Numbered from the stretch's first letter, positions 4,378 through 36,363 are shown. The stretch is 64,000 bases of DNA from Alkaliphilus flagellatus (GCF_018919215.1 NZ_JAHLQK010000001.1:92430-156429); one strand, 5' to 3'. Numbers and translations are program-made. Notes: a model not told the origin generated them from the sequence alone.

Positions 4378-4412
4378 ATTTTAAAATATAAATTTAAATA
4401 ATTATTAAAAAT

Positions 4413-4452: not shown

Positions 4453-4491
4453 TAATATAATAAAATCAAATTTCAAGGAGGTTTACTAATT

Positions 4492-8436: not shown

Positions 8437-8438
8437 GA

Positions 8439-8482
8439 AAAAACCTTCCTATCAACTTTAAACTAATAGGAAGGTTTTTTAT
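8439..8482. terminator. bidirectional rho-independent terminator (nagB / rubrerythrin)
   Basis: Stem AAACCTTCCTAT/ATAGGAAGGTTT followed by TTTTT. Confidence 0.7.
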
Positions 8483-8506
8483 GTATTAATATGTTAGTAA
8501 TTTATA

Positions 8507-9079: not shown

Positions 9080-9294
9080 ATAATCTCCTCCTAAAATAAA
9101 TTTACATATATTTTTCTTATATGTCCATAAACATATCTACCCTAATTAATATTTATTAATCAAATAAATTATTACTATTAACATCGTTTACTTAAACTTC
9201 CAAATATCAAAGTACTTAGGGCAGGAGTTAGGCATATTATATAGAATAAATATAGTATTAATACTGAATAATTTGTTTTGGGGAGGATAGAAGT

Positions 9295-9666
9295 ATGGAT
9301 AGCCAAAAAAATAATTTAAAGGAAGCAATCGTATTTCTATTTCAAGAAATTTTAGTAGCTGTAAAACAGGGTATTATAGGTGTATTAGTAGGTACTGGAA
9401 TTGGAATCATCATTAGCTTAACAAAACATACAGAAATTATTTCAAGTATTAATCGATGGCTATATATTACAGGTGTAGCTCTAATGGTTTTGGCAATTTT
9501 TCCAAGTAGTAATTTAGACTATGCATATTATTCGTATGAACAGTCAAAAGCGGCTGCTAATAGAAGATCGGAAAGATATGATAGTATATTAAAGAATTTT
9601 ATTAGAGCTGCTACAGTATTAATATTAGCAGTGATTTTAGAAAAGATAAGACGTAATTTATTATAG
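9295..9666 (+). CDS. hypothetical membrane protein
   Basis: 123 aa with 2-3 predicted TM helices. The downstream ORF is coupled by a 9-nt gap. Confidence 0.4.
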   Translation: MDSQKNNLKEAIVFLFQEILVAVKQGIIGVLVGTGIGIIISLTKHTEIISSINRWLYITGVALMVLAIFPSSNLDYAYYSYEQSKAAANRRSERYDSILKNFIRAATVLILAVILEKIRRNLL

Positions 9667-22825: not shown

Positions 22826-22947
22826 AATTTAAAGTATTATGCCTGTGTATATTCAAAAGACCTAGATTTCATAAAATGATCATTTTTCTGATATAATATG
22901 TAATAAGTAACTAAATAGCTTTAAGCAAGTTGTATTGGAGGATAGAT

Positions 22948-23616
22948 ATGCAAAAAATTATTATAATAGAGGATACTGAAACCATAAGAGAAGAACTTAA
23001 AATATTTTTATCTAAATATGGTTACGAGGTTGATGCTCCAGATGATTTTAGCAATATAGTTGAGTATATATATAGATCCAATGCTGATCTAATTTTATTA
23101 GATATAAATTTACCTGTTTTTGATGGATATCATATATGTAGAGAAGTTAGAAAAAATTCGGATGTACCAATAATAGTAGTTACAAGTAGAGATAGTGAAA
23201 CAGATGAACTTATGAGTATGAATTTAGGTGCAGATGATTTTATCACGAAACCTTATAACACACAAATACTTTTAGCTCGTATTTCAGCAGTTTTAAAGAG
23301 AACTTCCAAAAGCAATCCTAGTGATGTATTAGAGTACAATGATATAAAGTTAAATCTATTAAATGGTAGTATTATCTATAAAGGAAATACAGAACAATTA
23401 ACTAAGAATGAAATAAAAATACTTTCTTATCTCATAAAGTATAAGGGAACTATAGTATCAAGAGAAGCATTAATGGAACACTTATGGAATTCAGATGTTT
23501 TTATTGATGATAATACATTGTCTGTAAATGTAACAAGATTAAGAAAAACACTTGAAGATATAGGTGTAAAAGATGTAATAGAGACGAGGAGAGGTTTGGG
23601 ATATATAATGCCATGA
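22948..23616 (+). CDS. OmpR-family response regulator, BceR-like
   Basis: Receiver domain with winged helix. Located upstream of a BceS-type kinase and a BceAB-type ABC transporter. The ATG at 22948 follows a GGAGG RBS, so the ORF-track TTG at 22930 is less likely. Confidence 0.8.
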   Translation: MQKIIIIEDTETIREELKIFLSKYGYEVDAPDDFSNIVEYIYRSNADLILLDINLPVFDGYHICREVRKNSDVPIIVVTSRDSETDELMSMNLGADDFITKPYNTQILLARISAVLKRTSKSNPSDVLEYNDIKLNLLNGSIIYKGNTEQLTKNEIKILSYLIKYKGTIVSREALMEHLWNSDVFIDDNTLSVNVTRLRKTLEDIGVKDVIETRRGLGYIMP

Positions 23617-24626
23617 GTATAAAAGAGTATTTAAAAGAAAGATTTTTGTTCATGTTTATAAATTTCATAGGATTTTTTATTTTGGCTTTTGTGCTGGCTA
23701 TACTAGACATAAAAACTATTGTCATATTTTTAATTTTTATTATATGGTTTTTACCTCTAATAATCTATATTAGTATAGAGTTTTTTAAGCATAAAAAATA
23801 TTATAATAATATGGAAGAAACATTACAAAGTCTTGATAAAAAGTATTTATTGCCAGAAATCATGGAAAAACCAGACTTTTTAGAAGGAAAACTTTTTTAC
23901 GATATACTAAAAGTATGTAATAAAGAAATGCATGAGCATGTAAATTATTATAAAAATCTTCAGTCCGAATATAGAGAATATATTGAGACCTGGGTTCATG
24001 AAATTAAAACACCTATTTCATCAAGTATGTTGATTATAGAGAATAATAAAAGCCCTATTATGGATAATATAGGTCAAGAAATAAAGAAAGTAGAAGGGTT
24101 TGTAGAACAGGCATTATACTATTCAAGAAGCAATGATGTTAGTAAAGATTATATAATAAAGAAGTTTGATTTATCAACAGCTGTAAATAATGCTATTAGA
24201 AGAAATTCTAAGGATTTTATAGGTAAAAGGATAAATTTACAATTAGACGAAATAGATGCTGTTGTATATAGTGATATAAAGTGGGTACAATTTATACTCA
24301 ATCAAATCATAAGTAATTCAATCAAGTATATTAAGCCTAAAGAAGGTAATATAAGAATATATTCAACCAGCAATAAAAATAATGTAGTACTTACAATTCA
24401 AGATAATGGAATAGGAATTTCAGAGAAGGATATTAATAGAGTTTTTGAAAAAGGCTTTACAGGAGAGCATGGAAGAAAATACAATGCATCTACAGGTATG
24501 GGATTATATCTTTGCAGAAAACTTTGTGACAAGCTAGGTTTAGAAATAAATATTGCATCTGAATTAGGAGTAGGAACAAAGGTTAATATAATATTTCCGT
24601 TAAGTAAGTTTAATTTAGGGATTTGA
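23613..24626 (+). CDS. intramembrane-sensing histidine kinase, BceS-like
   Basis: Two TM helices with almost no extracellular loop. H-box region ETWVHEIKTPI and HATPase (GIGISEKD...GMGLYLC). Overlaps the RR stop. Confidence 0.8.
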   Translation: MSIKEYLKERFLFMFINFIGFFILAFVLAILDIKTIVIFLIFIIWFLPLIIYISIEFFKHKKYYNNMEETLQSLDKKYLLPEIMEKPDFLEGKLFYDILKVCNKEMHEHVNYYKNLQSEYREYIETWVHEIKTPISSSMLIIENNKSPIMDNIGQEIKKVEGFVEQALYYSRSNDVSKDYIIKKFDLSTAVNNAIRRNSKDFIGKRINLQLDEIDAVVYSDIKWVQFILNQIISNSIKYIKPKEGNIRIYSTSNKNNVVLTIQDNGIGISEKDINRVFEKGFTGEHGRKYNASTGMGLYLCRKLCDKLGLEINIASELGVGTKVNIIFPLSKFNLGI

Positions 24627-24627
24627 A

Positions 24628-24660
24628 AAGTGTGAGTTGAAATACTTACACTTTTTTATT
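24628..24660 (+). terminator. hairpin terminator (imperfect)
   Basis: AAAGTGTGAGT...ACTTACACTTT followed by TTT. One mismatch in the stem. Confidence 0.4.
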
Positions 24661-24854
24661 TAAGTTTTTTGATGAATGTGTAATAGGATTTGTATCAATG
24701 GGAAATGTATAGCAAAAGATTATCTTACGAAAATGCAACTTTAATGAAAGCTAATTCGATATGTGATCTCTTAATAATTCAATATAATAACATCATAAGA
24801 CATATTCAAAAAATAATTAGCAAATTTCAATAAAGTTGAATGGAGGATATAGAT

Positions 24855-25622
24855 ATGAAAAATATATTAAGTGTAGAGAACATTGAAAAGTATTATGGCA
24901 AAAAAGAAATCATAACTAAGGCATTAGATGGTATAAGCTTTAAGGTAGATAAAGCAGAATTTGTTGGAATAATGGGACCATCAGGAAGTGGTAAAACTAC
25001 ATTGCTTAACTGTATTGCAACAATTGACAACGTAACAACTGGTCAGATTATTGTAAATGACCAAAATATTACAAAGATAAAATCTAAAAAATTAGATAAA
25101 TTTAGAAGAGATGAGTTAGGGTTTATATTTCAAGATTTCAATTTGCTTGACACATTAACTGGTTATGAAAATATAGCTTTAGCTTTAACAATACAAGAAA
25201 GAAACCCAAAAGAAATAGATAGTTTAATAAGGAAGGTTGCAGAAACGCTTAATATTTTAGACATTTTAAATAAATACCCATACCAAATGTCGGGTGGACA
25301 GCAGCAAAGGGTAGCTTGTGCTAGAGCAATAGTTACTAATCCATCATTAATATTAGCAGATGAACCTACAGGTGCTTTAGATTCTAAATCTTCAAGATTA
25401 CTACTAGAATCTTTTGAGAGGCTAAATAAAGAGTTGGAGGCTACTATATTACTTGTAACCCATGATGCTTTTACTGCAAGCTATGCTAATAGGATATTAT
25501 TTATAAAAGACGGTAAAATATTTAATGAGTTAGTTAGGGGAAATGATTCTAGAAAAGAATTTTTTAATAGAATTATCGAAGTAATGACGCTTTTGGGGGG
25601 TGACGTTAATAATGTATTTTAA
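24855..25622 (+). CDS. ABC transporter ATP-binding protein, BceA-like
   Basis: Walker A GPSGSGKTT, signature MSGGQQQRVA, Walker B ILADEPTGALD. ATG at 24855 after a GGAGG RBS. Confidence 0.8.
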   Translation: MKNILSVENIEKYYGKKEIITKALDGISFKVDKAEFVGIMGPSGSGKTTLLNCIATIDNVTTGQIIVNDQNITKIKSKKLDKFRRDELGFIFQDFNLLDTLTGYENIALALTIQERNPKEIDSLIRKVAETLNILDILNKYPYQMSGGQQQRVACARAIVTNPSLILADEPTGALDSKSSRLLLESFERLNKELEATILLVTHDAFTASYANRILFIKDGKIFNELVRGNDSRKEFFNRIIEVMTLLGGDVNNVF

Positions 25623-27642
25623 TATAGCTATTAATAATATAAAAAAGAGTTTTAAAGATTATGCAATATATTTCATAACTCTTACATTAGCAGTATGTAT
25701 ATTTTACAATTTTAACTCAATGAATTCTCAAACAGTAATGCAAGATATGAATAAAATAGAAGTATTAGTTAAGTTAATATCCTATATATCTATATTTATT
25801 TCAGTTGTTTTTGGTGGATTAGTTATATACGCTAATAATGCTCTATTAAAGAAACGTAAAAAAGAGTTTGGAATATATACAACTTTAGGTATGTCAAAAA
25901 CAAAAGTATCTAAAATATTAATTTATGAAACCTTTGTAGTAGGGATGATATCACTTGTTACAGGATTATTACTAGGAATAGTATTATCACAAGGAATTTC
26001 AGTAATTACAGGGAAATTGTTTGAATTTAATATGGAGGAATATAAATTTATTATATCTACCAACGCAATTGGCAAAACTTTTATATATTTTGGCGCAATG
26101 TTTATTTTAGTTATGATATTTAATACAGTAGTTGTGTCCAAGCATAAATTAATTGATATGATAAATGCCTCAAAGAAAAATGAAGAAATAAAAACTAGAA
26201 ATCCCATAGTTTCAGTTATAATATTCATTTTATCTTTGGCTGTTTTATCAAGAGCTTACTATTTAGGGTGGAAGTTTGCACCTACTCCTAAAAATATTAA
26301 TTTCCCCTTATCTATAATATGGGGAAGTGCTGGTACTCTATTGTTTTTCTTTGGATTAGCTGGATTTATATTAGTTATACTGAAAAAAAATCCACAAATA
26401 TATTTAAAAAGGTTAAATATATTTGTTATAAAACAGTTTAATAATAAAATAAATACAAACTTTATATCCATGGCAATAATATGTCTTATGCTATTTGTAA
26501 CTATAGTAATGTCATCATCAAGCTTAAGTATTAAGACTAAATTAGAAGAAAGATTAGAAAATTTAACACCTTTTGATGCTAATATTGAACTAAATATTAG
26601 AAGTGACCAACAAGAAGTACGAGATATAGAAAAGGCTTTGAAAACAGTAGATTTCCAATTGAGAGAATCTTATAAGTATGCTGTATTAGATGTTTATGGC
26701 ACAGACATTAAAGTATCTAATTTATTAAATGAGTATGCAAATAAGGATTTAAAAGCTAGATTAAAAAATTATGTTGGAAATTTAAAAACTATAGGAATAT
26801 CACAATACAATGAAATGAAAAAGTTAAAAGGTGAGTCAACAATAGAATTAAAAGCAAATGAAGCTTTATTGCTAACAAGGGATAATGATGAAAAACAAGC
26901 AATAAACAATCTAATAAAGGATAAAAATGGGATAGATATTAATGGGAAGAAATATACTCTCATTAATGGCAAGAAATACACTCTCAAAACAGATATAGAC
27001 TTAAAAGAGATTGAGTATAATTTAATTGCAATAGTACCTGATTATGCTGTAGAAAATATGACTAAATATTATTCAACAATGTATATGAAAAATATAGATG
27101 AAATGGCTAAAGAAGACCTTGAAGAACAGGTTAAAGAACTAAAACAAAAATTTTCGAATTTAGATTATGATTACGATAAAATTTTAAATAAATATGGCTT
27201 TATTTTACGTGCAGAAACTAGAACTCAAGTATATAATGAGACTAAAAATGCTATAGGAACAAATTTATATATAGGAATATACTTGGGGTTTGTATTTTTA
27301 ATAGCAAGTGCAGCAGTATTAGCAATTCAACAATTAACAGAAGCAAGTGATAGTGTAAATAGATATAAGACACTCAAAAAAATTGGGGCATCAGATCATA
27401 TGATTAATAAAACTATATTTACTCAAATTCTAATACACTTTATGGCACCTCTAATGTTAGCACTAGTGCATTCTATAGTAGCATTAGTAATTATAGGTAG
27501 ATTGTCAAAATATGCAGGCTTATTGGCCATTTTCAAACTTGGACCGACTATATTTATAACTGGCATTGTAGTTATTGTAATATATGGTTCCTATCTATAT
27601 GCTGCTTATACTGGATATAAAAATATAGTTAAAAGTAGTTAA
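25612..27642 (+). CDS. ABC transporter permease, BceB-like (FtsX-type, 10 TM, large extracellular loop)
   Basis: About 677 aa. TM bundle 1-4, a roughly 200-aa extracellular domain, TM 5-10 and a C-terminal FtsX region. Overlaps the bceA stop. Confidence 0.8.
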   Translation: MYFNIAINNIKKSFKDYAIYFITLTLAVCIFYNFNSMNSQTVMQDMNKIEVLVKLISYISIFISVVFGGLVIYANNALLKKRKKEFGIYTTLGMSKTKVSKILIYETFVVGMISLVTGLLLGIVLSQGISVITGKLFEFNMEEYKFIISTNAIGKTFIYFGAMFILVMIFNTVVVSKHKLIDMINASKKNEEIKTRNPIVSVIIFILSLAVLSRAYYLGWKFAPTPKNINFPLSIIWGSAGTLLFFFGLAGFILVILKKNPQIYLKRLNIFVIKQFNNKINTNFISMAIICLMLFVTIVMSSSSLSIKTKLEERLENLTPFDANIELNIRSDQQEVRDIEKALKTVDFQLRESYKYAVLDVYGTDIKVSNLLNEYANKDLKARLKNYVGNLKTIGISQYNEMKKLKGESTIELKANEALLLTRDNDEKQAINNLIKDKNGIDINGKKYTLINGKKYTLKTDIDLKEIEYNLIAIVPDYAVENMTKYYSTMYMKNIDEMAKEDLEEQVKELKQKFSNLDYDYDKILNKYGFILRAETRTQVYNETKNAIGTNLYIGIYLGFVFLIASAAVLAIQQLTEASDSVNRYKTLKKIGASDHMINKTIFTQILIHFMAPLMLALVHSIVALVIIGRLSKYAGLLAIFKLGPTIFITGIVVIVIYGSYLYAAYTGYKNIVKSS

Positions 27643-27748: not shown

Positions 27749-28750
27749 TTATAAATTAAGATTAACTATAGTTCTACCTTTGTGTGTACCTTCTAAGATC
27801 ATATCTATTTTTTTACTTAATCCTTCTAAGGAAACTTCATCTACATTATCATTTAAATTATTAAGCTTCCAATCTGAGGATAATTTATCCCAAATCTTAA
27901 GTCTAATATCCATAGGACATTGAACAGAATCGATTCCAAATAATGTTACTCCTCGTAGAATAAAGGGATAGACTGATGTTGACAATTCATGAGATGCAAC
28001 ATTCCCACAACATGTTACAATACCCCCATAATTAGTTGATTTAATTGCTGTGGCTAACATATTTCCGCCTACTGTATCTATTACTCCTGCCCATCTACCC
28101 TTTAAAAGTGCTCTCTGAGAATCGTCATCTATTTCTTTTCTATCGATTATATCCTTTGCACCAATTCCTAATAGCATTTCTTTTTCAGAAGCTTTTCCTG
28201 TAGCAGCAATTACATTATATCCAATCTTACTTAAGATTGAAATAGCGATACTACCTACTCCTCCTGTTGCTCCTGTTACTAATATAGGTCCATCATTAGG
28301 TTTTACACCTGAGTTAACTAGTTTATAAACTGATAAGGCAGCAGTAAATCCAGCAGTTCCATATATCATACTTTCTCTTAAAGAAAGATTTTCAGGAAGT
28401 TTTACAATCCATTCAGCAGGAACTCTAATATACTCTCCATATCCTCCTGACGTATTCATTCCTAAATTATATCCTGTTACAATCACCTTGTCTCCAATCT
28501 TAAAGTTATCATTATTGCTTTCAGCTACGATACCTGCCGCATCAATTCCTGGAGTATGAGGATAGTTTTTGGTCACTCCACGATTACCTGTAGCAGAAAG
28601 AGCGTCTTTATAGTTTAATGAAGAATATTTTACATTTATTATTACGTCTCCTTCTGGTAGGTCTTCAATTTGTTTAGCTACAATTTCTCTTTTAAATTTT
28701 TTTTCTTCCGTTTCTGATACTAACAGTGCACTATATGTATTATTGATCAT
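27749..28750 (-). CDS. YhdH/YhfP-family MDR oxidoreductase (acrylyl-CoA/quinone reductase-like)
   Basis: N-terminal GroES-like domain with a Rossmann region (VTGATGGVGSIAISI). The overall YhdH signature is typical. Confidence 0.7.
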   Translation of the reverse strand: MINNTYSALLVSETEEKKFKREIVAKQIEDLPEGDVIINVKYSSLNYKDALSATGNRGVTKNYPHTPGIDAAGIVAESNNDNFKIGDKVIVTGYNLGMNTSGGYGEYIRVPAEWIVKLPENLSLRESMIYGTAGFTAALSVYKLVNSGVKPNDGPILVTGATGGVGSIAISILSKIGYNVIAATGKASEKEMLLGIGAKDIIDRKEIDDDSQRALLKGRWAGVIDTVGGNMLATAIKSTNYGGIVTCCGNVASHELSTSVYPFILRGVTLFGIDSVQCPMDIRLKIWDKLSSDWKLNNLNDNVDEVSLEGLSKKIDMILEGTHKGRTIVNLNL

Positions 28751-28907
28751 TTTAAAAATCCTCCTATAAAATATAGTTTTATATAAAACTAATTATAACA
28801 AAAATATAGTTGGATATCAAACTATATCCAGTAAATTGCTTTATAGTTTATACAATATTATAATTAAATATATAATTTAAATTATACATTAGAATGGGAG
28901 TCTAGTT

Positions 28908-29345
28908 ATGAATGATAAATATATAGTATATTTCATAAGTAAAACTAAGAAAAAAATGACTGAATTTATTGAAAGAGAACTTAAAGAAGAAGAGCTAGAT
29001 GATTTAGTACCTTCCTATGGAAATATACTTACAGTACTGTATGACAATGATGGAAAATTAAGCATGAAGGAAATAGGAGAATTAATAGGAAAAGACAAGT
29101 CTACTATTACCGTATTAATCAATAAGTTATCAAAATTAGGATATGTACAAAAGGAAAAATGTCAAGAAGATAGAAGAGTAACTTACATAGTACTTACCGA
29201 AAAAGGTAAGTCAATAGAAGGTAAATTCAATGATATTTCTAAAAAAGTATATTTAACAGCATATAAAAATTTCTCTAAAGAAGAAAAAGATATATTTCTT
29301 AACCTGTTAAAGAAAATGAACAATAATTTTGATTTAAATAAGTAG
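28908..29345 (+). CDS. MarR family transcriptional regulator
   Basis: wHTH region SMKEIGELIGKDKSTITVLINKLSKLGYVQK. 145 aa. Confidence 0.7.
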   Translation: MNDKYIVYFISKTKKKMTEFIERELKEEELDDLVPSYGNILTVLYDNDGKLSMKEIGELIGKDKSTITVLINKLSKLGYVQKEKCQEDRRVTYIVLTEKGKSIEGKFNDISKKVYLTAYKNFSKEEKDIFLNLLKKMNNNFDLNK

Positions 29346-29370
29346 GGCAATATTATAATATTGCCCTACT
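29341..29370. terminator. bidirectional hairpin (perfect palindrome)
   Basis: GTAGGGCAATAT-TA-ATATTGCCCTAC sits between convergent genes. Confidence 0.6.
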
Positions 29371-29382
29371 ATTATTTATTAA

Positions 29383-30423
29383 CTATTTTAATAAATTTAT
29401 TGTAAACTCTTCTCCAACTTTTTTGAAATCATTACTCATTCTGCCGCTTTTATCAGGAAATTTAACAGCATAAGGAGTAAGATATAGTTTTTTTGCATTT
29501 TTATCAAGATTTCCATTAATAGTTTCTAACTTAAACATTCCATTATAGGCATTTGCACTGGACATAGAAAATTCAACTTGATTTCCTAAATCATCATGTC
29601 CTTTTAATAGCATATCGTAATAAATACCTTCTGATTCTTTTGAGAAATAGATTTTTTGTCCTAAATTATTACTAGTATATTTTTCTAATATAATCTCTTG
29701 GTCATTATCAAGCTTAAAACTATAATCAAGTAAAATGTCTTTAGTATTTAAAGCTAACTCATCTCCATTAGTTTTAAATTCAAATGCCCATTGTCCTGAA
29801 ACTGTTTTTCCATTAATAATTGGATCTGAGAACACAACTTTAACATTTAAGTCACCATTTAAATAATCTAAGTCACCATCGATATCATTTTTTATGTTAT
29901 GAAACATCACTTCTTCTACTGTATAATCATCTAGTTGCTTTGAGCTTCCGCTACCTCCATTATTTACTCTTTCTCCGTTTATATAAATACTAGAGCTTAA
30001 CGAAATTGAATCGTTTTCTAATTTCTCATTATATTTGGAAGTAGCTGAAACCACTAACTGATCATTGTCTAAAACAACTTCGTTTAATTGAATAGTTAGA
30101 CCATTTTTAGATATTGACTGATTTACAACTGTTTTATATTCATCTAAGCTTTTCTCTATTCCTAAGTAACTTACTATGTCGTAAGCAAGGGTGTTTGCAT
30201 ATGATAAAACATTATCACCTAAATTAGTTGTAAATAATGTTACTACTAATAGACCTATGGAAGCAGTTGATACATATTTTTTGTATAGAGTAGTATTCTT
30301 TCTTATAGATTTTTTAAAGATATTCTTTATTTTTCTTTTTTCAATATCAGTAAATTCCTCTTTATTGTATTCATTTAAATCCATTTCAACTTCATTTAAC
30401 AGATCATATATATTTTTTTTCAT
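29383..30423 (-). CDS. DUF4179-type putative anti-sigma factor (single TM, extracytoplasmic domain)
   Basis: Cytoplasmic N-terminus (MKKNIYDLLNEVEMDLNEY...), one TM (ASIGLLVVTLFTTNL), and an extracellular beta-rich domain. Separated from the upstream sigma gene by 4 nt. Confidence 0.5.
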   Translation of the reverse strand: MKKNIYDLLNEVEMDLNEYNKEEFTDIEKRKIKNIFKKSIRKNTTLYKKYVSTASIGLLVVTLFTTNLGDNVLSYANTLAYDIVSYLGIEKSLDEYKTVVNQSISKNGLTIQLNEVVLDNDQLVVSATSKYNEKLENDSISLSSSIYINGERVNNGGSGSSKQLDDYTVEEVMFHNIKNDIDGDLDYLNGDLNVKVVFSDPIINGKTVSGQWAFEFKTNGDELALNTKDILLDYSFKLDNDQEIILEKYTSNNLGQKIYFSKESEGIYYDMLLKGHDDLGNQVEFSMSSANAYNGMFKLETINGNLDKNAKKLYLTPYAVKFPDKSGRMSNDFKKVGEEFTINLLK

Positions 30424-30426
30424 TTT

Positions 30427-30981
30427 TTATCTCCTCTCTATAACATTAAACATACTTCTAAGTTTTCTTTTTCCTCTAGATACTCTGTTATAAATTACAT
30501 CTTTTTTCAATCCTGTTACCTTGCTTATATGGGAAACATCTTGTTCTTCAACATATAATCTAAGAAATAAATTTTTATCTTCATTTTTTAAGCAATTTAA
30601 TAATTCATCTAAATCTTTGTCTAAATCTTTTTTAGTAATTTCCTTAAAAATGTCATCCTCTGATATTATTTTTATATTATCTATATTTTCATTTTTTAAA
30701 TCTCTTAAATACTTCCGTCTATAATCAATAGTTTTATATTTTGATATTGCCGCCACCCAACTTTTAAAAGTACTTTTATCTTTATTAAAACTATATATAT
30801 TGTTCCAAATTCCTAAAAGTATATCATTTATACATTCTTCTTGATGACTTTCTAAGTTATATAAATGCTTCCTAACAATGGATTTAATAATCCATCCATA
30901 AGTATCTATAACATATTCTAGAGCTTTTTCGTCCCTGCTTTTTAGCCGATCAATAAAATTTTCTTCTGTAATCCTCCCCAT
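30427..30981 (-). CDS. sigma-70 family (ECF-like) RNA polymerase sigma factor
   Basis: Region 2 (DILLGIWNNIYSFNKDKSTFKSWVAAISKYKTIDYRRK) and region 4 HTH (EEQDVSHISKVTGLKKDVIYNRVSRGKRKL). Confidence 0.8.
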   Translation of the reverse strand: MGRITEENFIDRLKSRDEKALEYVIDTYGWIIKSIVRKHLYNLESHQEECINDILLGIWNNIYSFNKDKSTFKSWVAAISKYKTIDYRRKYLRDLKNENIDNIKIISEDDIFKEITKKDLDKDLDELLNCLKNEDKNLFLRLYVEEQDVSHISKVTGLKKDVIYNRVSRGKRKLRSMFNVIERR

Positions 30982-31357
30982 TCAGTTCCCTCCTTTCATA
31001 GGTTTACTGTTTAATTTGTCCGGACACTTAATACTTCGTACTCTATAATATATTATCTATCAAGAAATTGTAAAAATTTTTAGTAATAATATATCTACCA
31101 AATAGGCAGGTACATTTTGTCGAATTTTGCGGTTTAAAATTCATGGTGAATTTTAGGTTTATGAAGGAATAAAATGAAAATATGTCGAAAAGTATAGATT
31201 GCAATATAAAACGGTAGTACATATAATAATGAGATTAACAATAAAAACTACATAGATTCAAAGGTATTTGAATAAAGATTATAAAGTAAAAATAAACTAA
31301 TGTTTATTTAAGTTAAAGATTTTAAACTAAATCAATTAATATAGAGAGGTGTTCATA

Positions 31358-32644
31358 ATGGGAATAGTAGAGGTTGTAAAATATAATGGAAATCCAGATG
31401 TATTTGCTTGGAAATATCCGAATGAAGAGCTGGGAACTTGGACACAGCTTATTGTTAATGAATCTCAGGAGGCTATCTTATTTAAAGGCGGGCAAGCTCT
31501 AGATTCATTTTCAGCTGGAAGACATACTTTGGAAACTGCAAATATTCCACTTTTAAATAAAATAGTAAATCTTCCCTTTGGTGGACGTTCACCTTTTATT
31601 GCGGAAATTTGGTATATAAACAAGATAGTGTCCCTTGATGTAAAGTGGGGCACACCTACACCAATTCAGCTTCAGGATCCTAAATATGGAATATTTATTT
31701 CACTGAGATCTTTTGGTCAATTTGGGATTCAAATTGAAGATTCAAGAAAGTTTTTAATGAAGTTAGTTGGTACCCTTCCTGTATTTGATAAAGATAATTT
31801 GATAAGGTTTTTTAGAGGGATATACCTTACAAAGGCAAGAGATGCTATATCTTCCTATTTAGTACATAAAAAAGTAAGTGTTTTGGAGATAAATGCATAT
31901 GTTGATGAATTATCCGAGCATATAAAGGAGAAAATGGCACCTATAATGTCGGAATATGGAATAAAGCTAGTTAATTTCTACGTAAATGACATAAATATTC
32001 CAGAAGATGATTCTGGGGTGGCCAAACTAAAAGACGCTTTAGCAAAGCGAGCTGAAATGGACATTGTAGGATATAACTATATACAAGAACGCTCCTTTGA
32101 TACTTTGGACGGAGCTGCTACTAATCCTGGTTCAGCTCAATCTGGACTAATAGGAGCTGGAATTGGTTTAGGAATGGGGGCTGGTATGGGAGGTGCTATT
32201 GGTTCTCAATTTGGTGGGATAGTGGAAAATATAAATATAACAGCTAAAACAAAAAGCTGTCCTAACTGCGATGCTACTCTTAAAATAGAAAAGCGGTTTT
32301 GTGGTCGATGTGGATATAATTTTGATGATTCAATAGATAAAGAACAAATTATGTGCAGTAATTGTAATTATAAATATGATAAAAATGTAAAATTCTGTCC
32401 TGAATGTGGTGATCCATACAATCCTTGTCCAGAGTGTAAAGCAGATGTGAATATGGGTGCGGATAATTGTCATAAATGTGGGACTTCAATGCCAAGGCCA
32501 TGTTCTAACTGTGGTACATCAATAAAAGGGAAAAATAAATTTTGCCCTGAGTGTGGAATAAGCTTAGTAAAAAGATGTTCAAGCTGCAATTTTGAAATAG
32601 AAGGTAGTCCTAAGTTTTGTCCGGAATGTGGTAATAAAATGTAG
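31358..32644 (+). CDS. SPFH/Band-7 (YdjI-like) domain fused to five tandem zinc-ribbon modules
   Basis: N-terminal VEVVKYNGNPDVFAWKYP...SPFIAEIWYINK is SPFH/Band_7_1-like. A Gly-rich linker GAGIGLGMGAGMGGAIG follows. Then five CxxC-Xn-CxxC units (CPNC..CGRCG, CSNC..CPECG, CPEC..CHKCG, CSNC..CPECG, CSSC..CPECG). ATG at 31358 after AGAGAGGTG. Confidence 0.7.
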   Translation: MGIVEVVKYNGNPDVFAWKYPNEELGTWTQLIVNESQEAILFKGGQALDSFSAGRHTLETANIPLLNKIVNLPFGGRSPFIAEIWYINKIVSLDVKWGTPTPIQLQDPKYGIFISLRSFGQFGIQIEDSRKFLMKLVGTLPVFDKDNLIRFFRGIYLTKARDAISSYLVHKKVSVLEINAYVDELSEHIKEKMAPIMSEYGIKLVNFYVNDINIPEDDSGVAKLKDALAKRAEMDIVGYNYIQERSFDTLDGAATNPGSAQSGLIGAGIGLGMGAGMGGAIGSQFGGIVENINITAKTKSCPNCDATLKIEKRFCGRCGYNFDDSIDKEQIMCSNCNYKYDKNVKFCPECGDPYNPCPECKADVNMGADNCHKCGTSMPRPCSNCGTSIKGKNKFCPECGISLVKRCSSCNFEIEGSPKFCPECGNKM

Positions 32645-32668
32645 TTTTTGACTATGAGGAGGGATCAG

Positions 32669-33376
32669 ATGAAAAATAATAAAAGATTAGTTGCAAATAT
32701 TATAATATGTTTAATAATAGCAACTGTTACATTAGTGACTTTTTTCGTAGGCTTCTCAAAAGGTGAAAGAACAAGCTTTGACTATGCGAGCTTGATTTTT
32801 GTGATGATTTCAGAATTTGCCTTGTTTGCTGGATTGATTTTACTATCTGTAAATAGTGCTTATATGAAGACGGCACTTATTAGGTCAGGAATAATTACAG
32901 CATTGAGTGGTTATTGGATATTAACTACATTGGTGTCTTTGTTTTTTAGAGTAATATTCAATGATAACCTAGGCGGTTTTATTACAGTACAAATTATAAT
33001 AATGGGTATTACAGCTATTATTTGTATAACCTTGTTTATAGTCTCCTCTAATGTCCAAAGCTCTAACAATAATATAAGCCAGCAAAATTATTTGCATGAT
33101 GGGGAAAACATTGCGTTCTCTCTTAAAAGCAATGTAGAGTTTCAATCTTATAGAAATCACCTTGATGAATTATATGAAATTTTAAAATACAGTGATAAGA
33201 TTTCTACAAATGCGGCTTTAGATAGAGAAATCAATAATAAAATAACATTATTATCTAGCTATTTAAATGATAAAGAAATGAAAGAAGTTGAAGTAAATCA
33301 ATATATAGATAATATTATTTCCATGATTAAAGAAAGAAATATGATAACTCTTCAGGCAAAACGAGGAGGTTATTAA
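32669..33376 (+). CDS. membrane protein (4 TM + cytoplasmic coiled-coil tail), YdjH-like context
   Basis: Four hydrophobic helices, then a charged C-terminal 100 aa. ATG at 32669 follows an AGGAGGG RBS. Confidence 0.45.
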   Translation: MKNNKRLVANIIICLIIATVTLVTFFVGFSKGERTSFDYASLIFVMISEFALFAGLILLSVNSAYMKTALIRSGIITALSGYWILTTLVSLFFRVIFNDNLGGFITVQIIIMGITAIICITLFIVSSNVQSSNNNISQQNYLHDGENIAFSLKSNVEFQSYRNHLDELYEILKYSDKISTNAALDREINNKITLLSSYLNDKEMKEVEVNQYIDNIISMIKERNMITLQAKRGGY

Positions 33377-33415
33377 AATAATTTTAGTAGAGTTGAAAGC
33401 AAGGAGGAAAATAAA

Positions 33416-34273
33416 ATGGGAATAAACTATAGCAGCTATAATACTAACGACCAAGAAAGTCTTACAAATCCTAAAATACCGTGGTGGCTGTCTTTTCCAG
33501 CACTTACTATTATAACAATGTTATCTTTTCCAGTTGGAATATTTTTAATTTGGAAGAGAACTAAAGTTGATACTAATTCTAAAGGAATTATAATTACTGT
33601 ATTTGGTGGAATATTGGTTTTCATTGGAACCTTGGCTTTTGTAATACTAGTAATCCCACCACAAGATATTGACAATAGTGATATTAATGTGATTGTATTC
33701 TTTTTAATTCTAGGTTTTTCACTGATCTTCCTTGGTAGGAAAAAGAGAAAGGATGCAGAGAAGCTTAAAAAATATATATCGATTATCTTAACTAACAAAG
33801 AAACATCTATTAATAATATAGCGGCAGCCATACCAACATCATATAAAACTGCAAAAAAGGATATACAAAACTTGATTAAGAAAGGTTATTTAACTGGTAT
33901 ATATATTAACGAAGCAACAGGAGAAATTATTTTTCCTAGAGAGCAAAGATTAAATTATGGAAATGTGCATAGTAATCAAGAAACGCGTAGTAATCAAGCA
34001 CCACGTAGTAATGTATATACAAGTGTACATTCTACCACTACTACTAGTGGTAATGTTGATCCTGATACTGCAAGGAGGGTATTTGAAAACTTACAGCCTT
34101 TAATGGATATGGCATTTAATACTGATTCTAATATTAATACCAATACTAATAATAACAGGAATACTAATACATCAGAGACTGTTGTTGCTTGTAAAGGCTG
34201 TGGTGCCAATAATAGGATTATTAGAGGTAATTTAGCTGAATGCCAATACTGTGGTTCGCCAATTGATAATTAA
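33416..34273 (+). CDS. membrane-anchored protein with wHTH-like segment and C-terminal zinc ribbon
   Basis: 3 TM. The segment SINNIAAAIPTSYKTAKKDIQNLIKKGYLTGIYINEATGEIIF resembles a GntR/DeoR-like wHTH. An N/T-rich linker follows, then CKGCGANN...CQYCGSP. Confidence 0.45.
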   Translation: MGINYSSYNTNDQESLTNPKIPWWLSFPALTIITMLSFPVGIFLIWKRTKVDTNSKGIIITVFGGILVFIGTLAFVILVIPPQDIDNSDINVIVFFLILGFSLIFLGRKKRKDAEKLKKYISIILTNKETSINNIAAAIPTSYKTAKKDIQNLIKKGYLTGIYINEATGEIIFPREQRLNYGNVHSNQETRSNQAPRSNVYTSVHSTTTTSGNVDPDTARRVFENLQPLMDMAFNTDSNINTNTNNNRNTNTSETVVACKGCGANNRIIRGNLAECQYCGSPIDN

Positions 34274-34300
34274 GAAAGTGAGAAAATAGTCAAATAAATA

Positions 34301-34340
34301 AAAACATCTTTTCTTTTTCTATTAGAAAAGATGTTTTTTA
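34301..34340. terminator. bidirectional rho-independent terminator
   Basis: Stem AAAACATCTTTTC/GAAAAGATGTTTT followed by TTATTT. Confidence 0.6.
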
Positions 34341-34401
34341 TTTGTTAAAAATGTTTGTTTAATGGATTTAGATTTGCTAATATGTCAAAATCTAACATTC
34401 C

Positions 34402-35262
34402 TTATGCTAGTGATAGCATAATTAGCCCAATTATCATTACACATATACCAATTAGCTTTGTTTTACTCAAATCTTCTGACAGCAATTTAACGCCAAGAAA
34501 TGTTCCAATTAAAATACTGAGTTCTCTCATTGGTGCAACATAGTATACAGGGGTAAAAACCATAGCAGTTAAAACTAAAATATATGATAGTGGAGATAAT
34601 ATTGCTACTGTAAATACTTCTTTTTTATGATTAAGCATTAAATGTTTTATTTGATCCTTTCTACGTAATGAGTAAGGAGTGAGAAGCAGAATTCGCCCAA
34701 AATTTACTGACCAATCTAGCAGAATTGGCGGTAACATAAGTGTGCTTACTGCTATTTTATCAAAGATAGTATAAGAAGCAATTGTAAGACCACATAGGAA
34801 AGCGTAAATAAGAGAACTATCTTTATTTGATTTTAGGATTGACACAGGGTTTCCTGTAATTGTAACAATTCCTAATATCATTAGAAAGATACCAACCATT
34901 GCGGTTAAAGAAGCACTCTCATTTAAGAAAACAATAGCTATAATAGTTGAAAATAGTGGGCCTGTTCCTCTGGCTAAAGGGTATATAACAGAAAGATTTC
35001 CTATTCTATAACCTTTACTCAGCAATATAGTGTAAATAGAATGTAATGCTGCACTTCCTATAATAAAGAAAATAAAGTAGAATTTAAAATTAACCTCATA
35101 AATAAATAATGATGCCAAAGCAAAAGGTAAATAAACGATTGAAGAAATACATGAAAACAACCAAATAAAAGTTGTATTGCTTTCAATCTTTTTAGTAGCA
35201 TAATTCCATGTTGCGTGAAAAATTGCAGAAAGAATAATTAGTATAAAGCCTATGCCTGTCAT
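34402..35262 (-). CDS. EamA/DMT-superfamily transporter
   Basis: 10 TM with two EamA-like repeats. N-terminal AIFHATWNYATKK is typical. Confidence 0.7.
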   Translation of the reverse strand: MTGIGFILIILSAIFHATWNYATKKIESNTTFIWLFSCISSIVYLPFALASLFIYEVNFKFYFIFFIIGSAALHSIYTILLSKGYRIGNLSVIYPLARGTGPLFSTIIAIVFLNESASLTAMVGIFLMILGIVTITGNPVSILKSNKDSSLIYAFLCGLTIASYTIFDKIAVSTLMLPPILLDWSVNFGRILLLTPYSLRRKDQIKHLMLNHKKEVFTVAILSPLSYILVLTAMVFTPVYYVAPMRELSILIGTFLGVKLLSEDLSKTKLIGICVMIIGLIMLSLA

Positions 35263-35388
35263 TTTAATTCCTCCAATAATATTGATGTTTTTTTCTTGGT
35301 ATGTTAATTTTATATATAGAAATAATAGATGTAAAGCTCAAAAAATAGATAATAAATATCTAAAAATTAGATAAATGGGGAGATATAA

Positions 35389-36312
35389 ATGCTAAATTAT
35401 TTGGGGATAGAAGCTTTTTTAACTATTGTTAAAACTAAGACTTTAACGAATGCTGCTGAAGAATTACATCTTTCACAGTCAACCATAAGTTATAGATTAA
35501 AAGTTTTAGAGCAAGAGGTGGGTAAAAAGCTTTTAATTAGAAAAAAAGGTGTGCAAGAAATAATACTGACACCTTTTGGAGAAGAATTTATTAATATCTG
35601 CGAAAGATGGATGAGTCTTCAACAAGAGATGGAAATTTTAAAAAAGAGAGGAACAAAGCTGAGTATAATTATAGGAGGTGCTGACAGCTTTAACAGCTAT
35701 ATTTTGTCACCACTATATCAGAAATTGTGCCAACATAACCCAATTATAAATATAGAAATTCGTTCTCAACATACTGACGAATCGTATGAAAGTGTTGAAC
35801 GGAGAGATATTGATATTGCTTTTGTAAAAAAAGAAAGAATTATACCTAATGTATTGGTTGAACCTTTCTATGAGGATGAGATGGTTGTTGTCCGTTTGGC
35901 TACGGATTACCGAGTTCACAATGAACTAATTTCACCTGAAGAATTAAATAGTAATCATGAAATTTTTATGAATTGGGGACCATCTTATCAAATTTGGCAT
36001 GAAAAATGGTGGGATCCAATATCTAGCTCGAGAATAATAGTTGATACAGCTGCATTGGTTTTTTCACTAATGTATGATGAAAATCAGTGGGCAATCGTGC
36101 CCAGATCAATAGCAAATCATTTTATTATATATAAAAAGTTTATTATTCAAAAGCTTAAATATCCAGCCCCACCAAGAATATGTTATAAGATTAGGAATAA
36201 GCATATGAACAAAATGAAGCAGGAATGTCTTGAAATTTTAGAACACTATGCTAAAATTGTATACTCAACAGATGGTGAGGGCTTAAGTTTTCCAGTGGAT
36301 AGCAGTTATTAA
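35389..36312 (+). CDS. LysR family transcriptional regulator
   Basis: N-terminal HTH (LEAFLTIVKTKTLTNAAEELHLSQSTISYRLKVLEQEVG) with a substrate-binding domain. Confidence 0.8.
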   Translation: MLNYLGIEAFLTIVKTKTLTNAAEELHLSQSTISYRLKVLEQEVGKKLLIRKKGVQEIILTPFGEEFINICERWMSLQQEMEILKKRGTKLSIIIGGADSFNSYILSPLYQKLCQHNPIINIEIRSQHTDESYESVERRDIDIAFVKKERIIPNVLVEPFYEDEMVVVRLATDYRVHNELISPEELNSNHEIFMNWGPSYQIWHEKWWDPISSSRIIVDTAALVFSLMYDENQWAIVPRSIANHFIIYKKFIIQKLKYPAPPRICYKIRNKHMNKMKQECLEILEHYAKIVYSTDGEGLSFPVDSSY

Positions 36313-36329
36313 AAAATCATAATAACCTT

Positions 36330-36363
36330 GGGCCGAGCTGGAATTTAAATTCTAGCTCGGCCC
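36330..36363. terminator. bidirectional terminator, 17-bp stem
   Basis: GGGCCGAGCTGGAATTT/AAATTCTAGCTCGGCCC with one mismatch, sitting between convergent genes. Confidence 0.6.

What the first reader, a model, noticed from the sequence alone, without database searches (positions are those of the whole stretch)
29383..33376. ECF sigma / DUF4179 anti-sigma pair divergent from an SPFH-zinc-ribbon fusion gene and a YdjH-like membrane protein: a YdjGHI-like envelope-stress module without PspA
On the minus strand a sigma-70 region2/region4 ECF-like sigma factor is followed at a 4-nt spacing by a DUF4179-type single-pass anti-sigma candidate. Divergently, the plus strand carries an SPFH/Band-7 (YdjI-type) domain fused to five tandem CxxC-Xn-CxxC zinc ribbons, then a 4-TM protein. 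In B. subtilis the SigW-controlled pspA-ydjGHI operon encodes the same parts as separate proteins: zinc-ribbon YdjG, membrane YdjH and SPFH YdjI. Here the ribbon and SPFH parts are fused, PspA is absent, and the partner sigma is a different ECF-like factor. The intergenic region carries two copies of TGTCGAA, near 31122 and 31185, which could be ECF-type -10 elements. This looks like a membrane-remodelling or envelope-stress device under dedicated sigma control, and I do not think it has been described in this form.
Basis: partly seen in the sequence, partly recalled or inferred. Interest (0 to 1): 0.66.

Follow-up and report, generated by a model that had tools for sequence, protein, structure and literature searches.

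The report
Two unrelated neighbours: ECF pair, SPFH operon
However, the sigma/anti-sigma pair and the SPFH-zinc-ribbon operon are independent neighbours, and the repeated TGTCGAA "ECF -10" motif is an exact match to the binding site of the sporulation regulator Spo0A, next to a sigma-H-type promoter.

Summary
- Minus strand: an ECF-type sigma (30427-30981) and a DUF4179+DUF5643 anti-sigma (29383-30423).
- Plus strand: a YdjI-type SPFH protein (PF13421) with five zinc ribbons (31358-32644) and a 4-TM protein (32648-33376).

The interpretation mostly fails.
- The SPFH-multi-ribbon protein is a common, highly conserved family. B. subtilis YdjI itself carries a C-terminal zinc finger, so this is not a YdjG+YdjI fusion.
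- The 4-TM protein has no TPM domain, so it is not YdjH-like.
- In 64 related SPFH loci the two downstream membrane proteins are conserved partners. The sigma pair is adjacent only in three close Alkaliphilus genomes that share the whole syntenic block.
- Sigma orthologues in six other genera sit in unrelated contexts. All carry one conserved promoter, TTGATAGAT-N15-ACGAAG, which is absent upstream of every SPFH gene.
- TGTCGAA is the Spo0A-box core. Copy 1 is invariant across three genera. Copy 2 forms the -10 of a sigma-H-like promoter, a pattern found upstream of 11/62 SPFH loci against 3/308 controls.

Verdict: an ordinary ECF pair beside an uncharacterised but widespread three-gene SPFH operon, probably under Spo0A/sigma-H control. 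Interest is modest.

The parts
29383..30423 (-). Anti-sigma factor, 346 aa. It has an N-terminal cytoplasmic part, a single hydrophobic segment (about res 50-68) inside DUF4179, and an extracytoplasmic DUF5643 domain.
   Evidence: Pfam DUF4179 E=1.4e-08 and DUF5643 E=9e-11. It is always found directly after the sigma orthologue in other genomes.
30427..30981 (-). ECF-type (group 4) sigma-70 family factor, 184 aa, with regions 2 and 4 only.
   Evidence: Sigma70_r2 and Sigma70_r4_2. TIGR02937 scores 65.5 bits against a cut-off of 42.9. Orthologues of 57-98% identity occur in many Clostridia.
31025..31063 (-). Conserved, probably autoregulatory promoter of the sigma operon: TTGATAGAT-N15-ACGAAGTATTAAGTG. 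It is followed in the 5' UTR by the palindrome GTCCGGAC.
   Evidence: The same motif lies upstream of the sigma orthologues in 7 independent genomes. It is the only strong PWM site in the 64-kb window, at 41.5 bits against 14 for the next best.
31118..31124 (+). Perfect Spo0A box (TGTCGAA), copy 1, within the invariant block TTGTCGAATTTTGCGGT.
   Evidence: It is invariant in the window, L001, L063, L077, Anaerosolibacter (L075) and A. peptidifermentans (L076). The consensus is taken from PMC3485338.
31163..31192 (+). Sigma-H-like promoter GAAGGAATA-N12-GTCGAAAAG. AGGA is at 31165 and GAAA at 31187, 22 nt apart. TGTCGAA copy 2 (31183-31189) is its -10 region.
   Evidence: The register is conserved in three genera, while copy 2 drifts to TGTTGAA. 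The pattern occurs upstream of 11/62 SPFH loci, against 0 on the reverse strand and 3/308 control regions. The SigH consensus is taken from PMC12456013.
31358..32644 (+). Soluble YdjI-type SPFH protein, 428 aa: Band_7_1 domain, Gly-rich low-complexity linker, and five CxxC-Xn-CxxC zinc ribbons.
   Evidence: PF13421 E=6e-45, plus DZR and Zn_ribbon hits. Ten CxxC motifs and no TM segment. The family has more than 5800 homologues.
32648..33376 (+). 4-TM membrane protein (242 aa as the ORF is called; the conserved start is probably the ATG at 32669) with a C-terminal cytoplasmic helical domain. It has no Pfam family.
   Evidence: Hydropathy. Homologue adjacent to the SPFH gene on the same strand (+1 in 35 loci, -1 in 7) in 42 loci. 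No TPM or NfeD hit at E<=10. All-helical AF2 model of low confidence.
33416..34273 (+). Third operon gene, 285 aa: three TM segments, a winged-helix domain (about res 110-175), a clade-specific N/S/T-rich insert, and a C-terminal CxxC-X13-CxxC zinc ribbon.
   Evidence: Homologue adjacent on the same strand in 53 loci. Conserved wHTH-like and ribbon columns. AF2 gives pLDDT 75-88 for an H-H-H-beta-beta unit. There are weak DeoR/CasR/PCI winged-helix hits.

Best explanation
The region holds two functionally independent modules lying back to back. The window is from Alkaliphilus sp. MSJ-5.

Module 1 (minus strand) is a standard, self-contained ECF sigma / RsiV-class anti-sigma pair.
- The anti-sigma (DUF4179 TM region plus extracytoplasmic DUF5643 sensor) holds the sigma at the membrane until an unknown envelope signal triggers its proteolysis.
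- The freed sigma transcribes its own operon from the conserved promoter TTGATAGAT-N15-ACGAAG at 31063-31025.
- It also transcribes targets elsewhere that are still unknown.

Module 2 (plus strand) is a widespread, uncharacterised three-gene operon.
- It encodes a soluble YdjI-type SPFH protein with a Gly-rich linker and five zinc ribbons.
- It also encodes two dedicated membrane proteins: a 4-TM protein, and a TM-winged-helix-zinc-ribbon protein.
- By analogy with YdjG/YdjH anchoring YdjI in B. subtilis, these two proteins most likely recruit the SPFH scaffold to the inner face of the membrane.

Module 2 has its own regulatory region, and this region travels with the operon in genomes that lack the adjacent sigma.
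- It holds an invariant Spo0A box and a sigma-H-type promoter.
- Expression is therefore predicted at the transition to stationary phase or the onset of sporulation, not under the neighbouring ECF sigma.

Shown here: the domain content, the conserved operon partners, the lack of linkage between the two modules, and the motif identities and their conservation.

Inferred: membrane recruitment, Spo0A binding, sigma-H dependence, and the anti-sigma mechanism.
For: Domains.

SPFH family size and architecture.

Operon partners. In 64 SPFH loci the only recurrent neighbours are the mem285-like family (53 loci) and the mem242-like family (42 loci). Both lie on the same strand, directly adjacent. Upstream genes are singletons, and there is no sigma.

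Sigma contexts.
- Orthologues (57-80% identity) in Maledivibacter, C. ganghwense, C. perfringens, C. botulinum, Inediibacterium and Marinisporobacter always carry the DUF4179 anti-sigma. Their flanks are unrelated and contain no PF13421 gene.
- Adjacency occurs only in the window, L063 and L077. These are three Alkaliphilus genomes that share the whole ADH-MarR-antisigma-sigma-SPFH block.
- The next relative, L001, lost the sigma through a deletion whose breakpoint lies inside the sigma promoter. It kept the full SPFH upstream region.

Sigma promoter. The motif is conserved in 7 genomes. A PWM finds it only upstream of sigma genes, at 25-29 bits. The best hit on the SPFH side of the intergenic region is 2.7 bits, and no SPFH locus has one upstream of the operon.

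Spo0A box and sigma-H promoter.
- TGTCGAA is the Spo0A-box core (PMC3485338).
- Copy 1 is invariant in three genera.
- The AGGA-18 nt-GAAA register is conserved and matches the SigH consensus AGGA/GAAT with a 17-18 nt spacer (PMC12456013).
- Enrichment is 11/62 against 3/308, Fisher p=3e-07. After collapsing related loci it is 6/57, p=7e-04.

YdjI precedent. YdjI is soluble, has a C-terminal zinc finger, and needs the membrane proteins YdjG and YdjH for localisation (PMC8581546).
Against: - No expression data exist. The sigma-H-like -10 reads GAAA rather than the consensus GAAT in the window clade.
- Perfect 0A boxes are clearly conserved only in the window's clade. Across all loci the count is 9/63 against 2.2 expected, and 5 of the 9 come from one clade.
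- A TATAAT at 31222-31227 and a conserved block at 31259-31292 could mark other promoters or operators.
- The ECF sigma could still act on the SPFH operon through a divergent promoter that the PWM does not capture. The divergent arrangement is kept in three Alkaliphilus species.
- The partner proteins are not homologous to YdjG or YdjH, so the anchoring role rests on analogy only.
- The structure models of both partners have low overall confidence (pLDDT about 56).
Confidence: 0.7

Rival explanations
1. One reading: the ECF sigma/anti-sigma pair is the dedicated regulator of the divergent SPFH operon, forming one envelope-stress device. The TGTCGAA copies would serve as ECF -10 elements.
For: - The divergent arrangement, with a 376-nt shared intergenic region, is retained in three Alkaliphilus genomes.
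- ECF sigmas often control adjacent genes.
- The precedent operon pspA-ydjGHI is controlled by an ECF sigma, SigW (PMC8581546).
- The -10 core of the sigma's own promoter (ACGAA) loosely resembles TCGAA.
Against: - Adjacency is absent from all other SPFH loci (about 60) and from six other sigma-orthologue genera.
- In the three genomes that have it, the whole multi-gene block is syntenic, so adjacency carries no specific signal.
- L001, L075 and L076 keep both motif copies without any adjacent sigma.
- The invariant -35 TTGATAGAT of the sigma's promoter has no counterpart upstream of either TGTCGAA copy. The best + strand PWM score is 2.7 bits, against 41.5 for the true site.
- In other genera copy 2 mutates at its C, the base the CGAA -10 core would need, while the AGGA...GAAA register is preserved.
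Confidence: 0.1
2. The SPFH operon is autoregulated by its own membrane-tethered winged-helix protein (33416-34273). That protein would bind the conserved upstream elements: the TGTCGAA repeats or the ATTCAAA-N4-TTTGAAT palindrome at 31266-31283. It would release or alter its binding when the SPFH/membrane complex senses membrane perturbation. Spo0A and sigma-H would play no part.
For: - The operon encodes a TM-wHTH-ZnR protein that is conserved in 53 loci.
- There are two direct repeats and a palindrome in the conserved leader.
- Membrane-tethered transcription regulators are known in other systems.
Against: - Neither the palindrome nor the TGTCGAA motif is found upstream of the operon outside the window's clade, although the wHTH protein is conserved family-wide.
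- The winged-helix matches are weak, and they include protein-interaction winged helices such as PCI, ScpB and DDRGK1.
- TGTCGAA matches the Spo0A box exactly.
Confidence: 0.12
3. The operon is transcribed constitutively from a sigma-A promoter (for example TTGCAA-17-TATAAT at 31199-31227, or TTCAAA-17-TATAAA at 31268-31296). On this view the Spo0A-box and sigma-H-like matches are non-functional.
For: The promoter scan lists TTGCAA-17-TATAAT, matching 10/12 positions. The TATAAT is conserved in L001 and L077.
Against: - The -35 TTGCAA is not conserved in L001, and the TATAAT is not conserved in L075 or L076. The Spo0A box and the AGGA...GAAA elements are conserved in those genomes.
- Sigma-70-like matches are barely above the shuffled expectation in this AT-rich DNA: 59 found against 43 expected.
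- The sigma-H-like pattern is enriched family-wide.
Confidence: 0.15

Closest known systems
B. subtilis YdjI within the SigW-controlled pspA-ydjGHI operon (PMC8581546; PMC11237479)
   Same: - Same SPFH subfamily, Pfam Band_7_1/PF13421.
- A soluble protein without a TM segment.
- A low-complexity region followed by C-terminal zinc-ribbon(s).
- Encoded together with two membrane proteins, one of which carries a zinc ribbon.
   Different: - Five ribbons instead of one.
- No pspA in the operon or the window.
- The partners are not homologous to YdjG or YdjH. YdjH has a TPM domain, and YdjG has N-terminal ZnRs, an NTF2-like domain and a TM segment. Here the partners are a 4-TM/helical protein and a TM-wHTH-ZnR protein.
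- Gene order is SPFH first, not last.
- There is no SigW-type promoter. A sigma-H-like promoter and a Spo0A box are present instead.
SigV/RsiV-class ECF systems with DUF4179 anti-sigma factors (ECF30 and relatives; PMC6066255, PMC7826278)
   Same: - A Firmicute ECF sigma co-transcribed with a single-pass anti-sigma. The TM-proximal region of that anti-sigma is DUF4179, the element that gates signal-peptidase site-1 cleavage in RsiV.
- A conserved promoter immediately upstream, consistent with autoregulation.
   Different: - The extracytoplasmic sensor is DUF5643, not the lysozyme-binding DUF3298 domain of RsiV, so the inducing signal is unknown.
- The promoter motif TTGATAGAT-N15-ACGAAG was derived here and has not been matched to a published ECF group.
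- No local target genes were found.
Spo0A/sigma-H-dependent early stationary-phase and sporulation promoters (0A box TGTCGAA, PMC3485338; SigH AGGA/GAAT, PMC12456013)
   Same: - Exact 0A-box core sequences.
- AGGA and GAA(A/T) elements in the canonical register, with one 0A box about 40 nt upstream of the -35.
   Different: - The -10 reads GAAA rather than GAAT in this clade.
- To my knowledge no SPFH operon has been assigned to the Spo0A or SigH regulon.
- Nothing here has been tested experimentally.

Membership tests
ECF (group 4) sigma-70 factors | Only regions sigma-2 and sigma-4, small size, and a match to the ECF superfamily model | tested here: met
   184 aa. Sigma70_r2 and Sigma70_r4_2 are the only Pfam families matched. 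TIGR02937 scores 65.5 bits against a cut-off of 42.9.
ECF (group 4) sigma-70 factors | Co-transcribed cognate anti-sigma factor | tested here: met
   The DUF4179 protein starts 3 nt after the sigma stop codon. The pair is conserved in every orthologous locus examined.
ECF (group 4) sigma-70 factors | Autoregulatory ECF-type promoter upstream of the sigma gene | tested here: inconclusive
   A conserved TTGATAGAT-N15-ACGAAG motif lies upstream of all orthologues. Whether this sigma recognises it was not testable.
RsiV-class DUF4179 anti-sigma factors | Single TM with a DUF4179 juxtamembrane region | tested here: met
   PF13786, res 47-128, 35.4 bits against a cut-off of 30.1.
RsiV-class DUF4179 anti-sigma factors | Lysozyme-binding DUF3298 extracytoplasmic domain (RsiV proper) | tested here: not met
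   The C-terminal domain is DUF5643 (PF18705). There is no DUF3298 hit.
YdjI-type SPFH proteins (Pfam Band_7_1) | PF13421 SPFH domain | tested here: met
   E=6.2e-45, 153.9 bits against a cut-off of 24.
YdjI-type SPFH proteins (Pfam Band_7_1) | No membrane anchor; low-complexity region plus C-terminal zinc finger | tested here: met
   No hydrophobic segment. Gly-rich linker at res 258-288. Five CxxC pairs. The YdjI description is taken from PMC8581546.
pspA-ydjGHI module | pspA in the same operon | tested here: not met
   There is no PspA among the neighbours in the window or among the recurrent neighbours in 64 loci. A phmmer search with a memory-typed E. coli PspA found nothing in the window (a weak test).
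pspA-ydjGHI module | YdjH partner: membrane-associated TPM-domain protein | tested here: not met
   The 242-aa protein has no TPM_phosphatase hit at E<=10 and an all-helical predicted structure. The definition is taken from PMC11237479.
pspA-ydjGHI module | YdjG partner: N-terminal TF_Zn_Ribbon(s), an NTF2-like domain, and a TM segment | tested here: not met
   The 285-aa protein has its TM segments at the N-terminus, then a winged helix, then a single C-terminal ribbon. It has no TF_Zn_Ribbon or NTF2-like hit.
pspA-ydjGHI module | SigW-type promoter (TGAAAC-N16-CGTA) | tested here: not met
   No match anywhere in the window.
Spo0A-regulated promoter | 0A box matching the core TGTCGAA | tested here: met
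   Two exact copies at 31118 and 31183. Copy 1 is invariant in six genomes of three genera.
Spo0A-regulated promoter | Binding by Spo0A~P and spo0A-dependent expression | not testable with these tools
   Needs EMSA or ChIP, plus expression analysis in a spo0A mutant.
Sigma-H-dependent promoter | -35 AGGA and -10 GAAT separated by 17-18 nt | tested here: inconclusive
   The site reads AGGA-18 nt-GAAA, one mismatch in the -10. The register is conserved, and the pattern is enriched upstream of SPFH loci.

The most novel reading that the evidence does not exclude
The SPFH-5xZnR / 4-TM / TM-wHTH-ZnR operon is a widespread, PspA-independent membrane-scaffold system of Firmicutes. It would belong to the Spo0A/sigma-H regulon and act at the onset of sporulation or stationary phase, for example in membrane remodelling at asymmetric division or engulfment. 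Its membrane-tethered winged-helix/zinc-ribbon subunit would couple membrane state to DNA or to another cytoplasmic partner. This would be a previously unrecognised developmental role for a YdjI-type SPFH protein with two new partner families.
Probability: 0.2. Interest if true: 0.6.

Novelty: new variant of a known kind. Interest (0 to 1): 0.33.

Why it matters
The headline idea, a new envelope-stress device under a dedicated ECF sigma, does not hold. That saves effort on sigma-overexpression experiments aimed at the SPFH operon.

What remains is a testable prediction about a very common gene set with no assigned function.
- YdjI-type SPFH proteins with poly-zinc-ribbon tails come with two dedicated membrane partners that have no Pfam family.
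- In many Firmicutes the operon is preceded by a sigma-H-type promoter. In the Alkaliphilus clade it is also preceded by a perfect Spo0A box.

If confirmed, this would tie an SPFH scaffold to the sporulation and transition-state programme rather than to cell-envelope stress. It would also provide a second, PspA-free context in which to study how soluble SPFH proteins are recruited to membranes.

Tried and rejected
1. Exact-sequence look-up of the SPFH protein. It was not on record with either start codon. The organism was identified instead through the third gene, which is 100% identical to a protein of Alkaliphilus sp. MSJ-5.
2. Defence-system reading. PADLOC gave no hits for the sigma, anti-sigma, SPFH or 4-TM proteins. 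The third protein gave only weak CasR/SoFic winged-helix hits.
3. Regulatory RNA in the long leader. There were no Rfam matches at E<=1 across 28700-34600.
4. TGTCGAA as part of the ECF promoter. The full PWM and the reduced (-35 plus -10 core) PWM both failed to find a site on the SPFH side.
5. The leader palindrome ATTCAAA-N4-TTTGAAT as a family-wide operator. It is not found outside the window's clade.
6. Fold assignment of the two partner proteins. The AF2 models have low confidence (pLDDT about 56) and no Foldseek hit reached E<=0.001. Only the winged-helix unit is usable.
7. Solved structures. There are none for the PF13421 domain or for the anti-sigma by sequence.
8. Direct alignment with B. 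subtilis YdjG, YdjH and YdjI.
9. Mobile-element origin of the sigma pair. The 10.6-31.0 kb stretch missing in L001 carries ordinary chromosomal regulators and transporters and no mobility genes. The breakpoint inside the sigma promoter points to a deletion in L001, not an insertion here.

Full report
**What is there**

The window has about 29% G+C. It comes from Alkaliphilus sp. MSJ-5: the product of 33416-34273 is 100% identical to a hypothetical protein of that strain.

On the minus strand:
- 30427-30981 encodes a 184-aa sigma factor. It has only Sigma70_r2 and Sigma70_r4_2. It passes the ECF superfamily model TIGR02937, at 65.5 bits against a cut-off of 42.9.
- Three nucleotides downstream, 29383-30423 encodes a 346-aa protein with DUF4179 (res 47-128) and DUF5643 (res 228-343).

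DUF4179 is the juxtamembrane element of RsiV-class anti-sigma factors. It is almost confined to Firmicutes (PMC6066255, PMC7826278).

On the plus strand, after a 376-nt intergenic region:
- 31358-32644 encodes a 428-aa protein with a Band_7_1 (PF13421) SPFH domain (E=6e-45). It also has a Gly-rich linker and ten CxxC motifs forming five zinc ribbons. It has no hydrophobic segment.
- 32648-33376 encodes a protein with four hydrophobic helices and a helical C-terminal domain.
A third gene follows 39 nt later (33416-34273): three TM segments, a winged-helix unit, an N/S/T-rich insert and a C-terminal zinc ribbon.

The two TGTCGAA copies are at 31118-31124 and 31183-31189. The heptamer occurs only three times in the whole window.

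**The SPFH-ribbon 'fusion' is the normal form of a large family**

A protein search returned more than 5800 hits. The best 120 are all 425-454 aa, 66-95% identical over the full length, and have the same Pfam architecture. They come from Clostridia, Desulfosporosinus, Syntrophomonas, Oscillospiraceae and others, and are annotated only as 'SPFH domain-containing protein' or 'membrane protease subunit (stomatin/prohibitin family)'.

[quoted passage not shown] It describes the protein as band-7 plus C-terminal ZnR (PMC11237479). The ribbons here are therefore not a captured YdjG.

**The partners are conserved, but they are not YdjG or YdjH**

I fetched 62 genomic loci encoding relatives of the SPFH protein, plus two more. 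I then clustered the three genes on each side. Only two neighbour families recur:
- relatives of the 285-aa protein, in 53 loci;
- relatives of the 242-aa protein, in 42 loci.

Both lie on the same strand, immediately adjacent, usually at +1 and +2. All upstream neighbours are singletons. The conserved unit is therefore a three-gene operon.

YdjH is defined by a TPM domain. YdjG is defined by N-terminal zinc ribbons, an NTF2-like domain and a TM segment (PMC11237479, PMC9239133).
- The 242-aa protein has no TPM hit even at E<=10 and is predicted to be all-helical.
- The 285-aa protein has the reverse layout (TM - winged helix - ribbon) and no TF_Zn_Ribbon hit.

Neither partner has a Pfam family on record in any locus. 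The module resembles YdjGHI in logic, a soluble SPFH protein with two membrane partners. It is not a member of that system, and pspA is not a neighbour in any locus.

**The sigma pair is not linked to the operon**

By BLASTP, the anti-sigma has no relative in any of the 62 loci, and the sigma has none near the SPFH gene. The one weak sigma hit is 7 kb away in L045.

The closest relative in the species collection is L001, at 89% DNA identity.
- Its homology runs from window 31044 to 34447.
- Its upstream neighbour is the HD-domain gene found at window 9676-10650.
- The breakpoint lies between the -35 and -10 of the sigma promoter described below. L001 keeps CTTGATAGG and then diverges. L001 therefore lost the sigma by deletion, yet kept the entire SPFH upstream region.

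Anaerosolibacter (82% identity) and A. peptidifermentans (81% identity) have the three-gene operon with unrelated upstream genes.

From the other side, the sigma has orthologues of 57-98% identity.
- In Maledivibacter, C. ganghwense, C. perfringens, C. botulinum, Inediibacterium and Marinisporobacter it is always followed by the DUF4179 anti-sigma.
- Its flanks in those genomes are unrelated, and there is no PF13421 gene.
- Adjacency exists only in the window, L063 and Alkaliphilus sp. B6464 (L077). In these three genomes the whole block is syntenic: deformylase-racemase, ADH, MarR, anti-sigma, sigma, SPFH operon, methyltransferase.

That is ordinary synteny among close relatives, not evidence of functional coupling.

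**Promoter evidence**

Upstream of every sigma orthologue lies the same motif, TTGATAGAT-N15(14)-ACGAAGTATTAAGTG. In the window it is at 31063-31025 on the minus strand.
- A PWM built from seven genomes scores that site at 41.5 bits. Nothing else in the 64 kb scores above 14 bits. The best hit on the SPFH side of the intergenic region scores 2.7 bits.
- A reduced PWM (-35 block plus -10 core) finds one strong site per sigma locus, always directly upstream of the sigma. It finds none upstream of any SPFH gene in 64 loci.

If this motif is the sigma's recognition sequence, as is usual for autoregulated ECF sigmas, the SPFH operon is not a target.

**What the TGTCGAA copies are**

TGTCGAA is the core of the Spo0A box. 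Its G2, C4 and G5 are contacted by Spo0A. Perfect matches to the motif predict binding by C. difficile Spo0A (PMC3485338).

An alignment of the SPFH upstream regions of the window, L001, Anaerosolibacter and A. peptidifermentans shows two things, and L077 agrees.
- Copy 1 lies in an invariant block, TTGTCGAATTTTGCGGT.
- Copy 2 becomes TGTTGAA in the two other genera, but it keeps a fixed register with an upstream GAAGGAATA. The layout is R-N-AGGAWWW, 12 nt, GTYGAAAAG, with AGGA and GAAA 22 nt apart.

This matches the sigma-H promoter consensus of AGGA and GAAT with a 17-18 nt spacer (PMC12456013), with one mismatch in the -10.

I scanned the pattern R.AGGAWWW-N11-12-R..GAAW across the loci.
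- It occurs on the forward strand upstream of 11 of 62 SPFH genes.
- It occurs 0 times on the reverse strand, and 0.29 times on average in shuffles.
- It occurs in 3 of 308 other upstream intergenic regions of the same loci.
- Fisher p=3e-07, or p=7e-04 after collapsing related loci.

Perfect 0A boxes are less general. They occur in 9 of 63 loci against 2.2 expected, and five of those nine are in the window's clade.

The most economical reading is a sigma-H-type promoter with an upstream Spo0A box. That implies expression at the transition to stationary phase or the onset of sporulation. This is inference from sequence only.

**Other checks**
- No Rfam family matches the leader.
- No SigW-type promoter occurs in the window.
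- No PADLOC defence model matches the sigma, anti-sigma, SPFH or 4-TM proteins.
- No solved structure matches the SPFH domain or the anti-sigma by sequence.
- The winged-helix call for the third protein rests on three things. They are conserved columns, an AF2 H-H-H-beta-hairpin unit at pLDDT 75-88, and many weak winged-helix matches. Whether it binds DNA is open.

**Verdict**

The sequence features are real. The proposed single device under dedicated sigma control is not supported. The region is an ordinary RsiV-class ECF pair with an unknown signal and regulon. Beside it lies a widespread, uncharacterised three-gene operon built around a YdjI-type SPFH protein, with new partner families and a probable Spo0A/sigma-H regulatory region.

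I rate it as a new variant of a known kind, of modest interest. The value lies in the re-assignment of the motif and in the operon definition, both of which are directly testable.

Noticed in passing
window 31016-31027 (minus-strand 5' UTR of the sigma gene); L065, L073: Just after the conserved sigma promoter the leader carries a short palindrome that changes by paired substitutions between genera. It reads GTCCGGAC in the window, GTTCGAAC in Maledivibacter (L065) and ATCCGGAT in Marinisporobacter (L073). It is absent in C. ganghwense and C. perfringens. It could be a small hairpin or an operator.
   Followed up: no
window 31259-31292: A block in the SPFH leader, CTACATAGATTCAAAGGTATTTGAATAAAGATTAT, is conserved in the window, L001, L077, Anaerosolibacter and A. 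peptidifermentans. It contains a 7-bp inverted repeat, ATTCAAA-N4-TTTGAAT. It is not found upstream of the operon outside this clade, and its function is unknown.
   Followed up: partly
window about 10650-31044 and 34447-36351, compared with L001, L063 and L077: The chromosome around the operon is highly variable between close relatives.
- L001 lacks about 20 kb (AraC regulator, transglutaminase-like protein, polyamine synthase, two two-component systems, a sigma-54 activator, an ABC transporter, ADH, MarR and the sigma pair). It also lacks the EamA/LysR pair.
- One L001 breakpoint falls inside the sigma promoter, between the -35 and the -10.
   Followed up: partly
window 22930-27642: A BceRS-AB-like module is present here: response regulator, histidine kinase, ABC ATPase and a 680-aa FtsX-type permease. 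It is absent at the equivalent position in L063 and L077, where the 205-aa gene is followed directly by the ADH gene. It looks like a strain-specific insertion of a peptide-antibiotic sensing and detoxification unit.
   Followed up: partly
window 33947-34165 (res 178-250 of the 285-aa protein): There is an N/S/T-rich low-complexity insert between the winged helix and the zinc ribbon. It is specific to the Alkaliphilus clade and varies in length between strains (proteins of 285-303 aa). Most family members are 185-230 aa and lack it.
   Followed up: partly
L070/L071 (C. botulinum) 483-3091: Two tandem 427-aa proteins with weak DUF4179 matches lie a few kb upstream of the sigma orthologue, in addition to its cognate anti-sigma. 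They may be extra anti-sigma-like paralogues.
   Followed up: no
L072 (Inediibacterium massiliense) 4255-4815, 7793-9619 and 9836-10555: The sigma orthologue there sits divergently from a second ECF-like sigma (186 aa). It also lies 4 kb from a classical Band_7 (PF01145) gene next to an HSP90-like ATPase. This is a different SPFH family, and the proximity is probably coincidental.
   Followed up: no
window 20641-21822: A single 393-aa ORF combines a peptide deformylase domain with an Asp/Glu racemase domain. It is conserved in L063 and L077. It is an unusual fusion.
   Followed up: no
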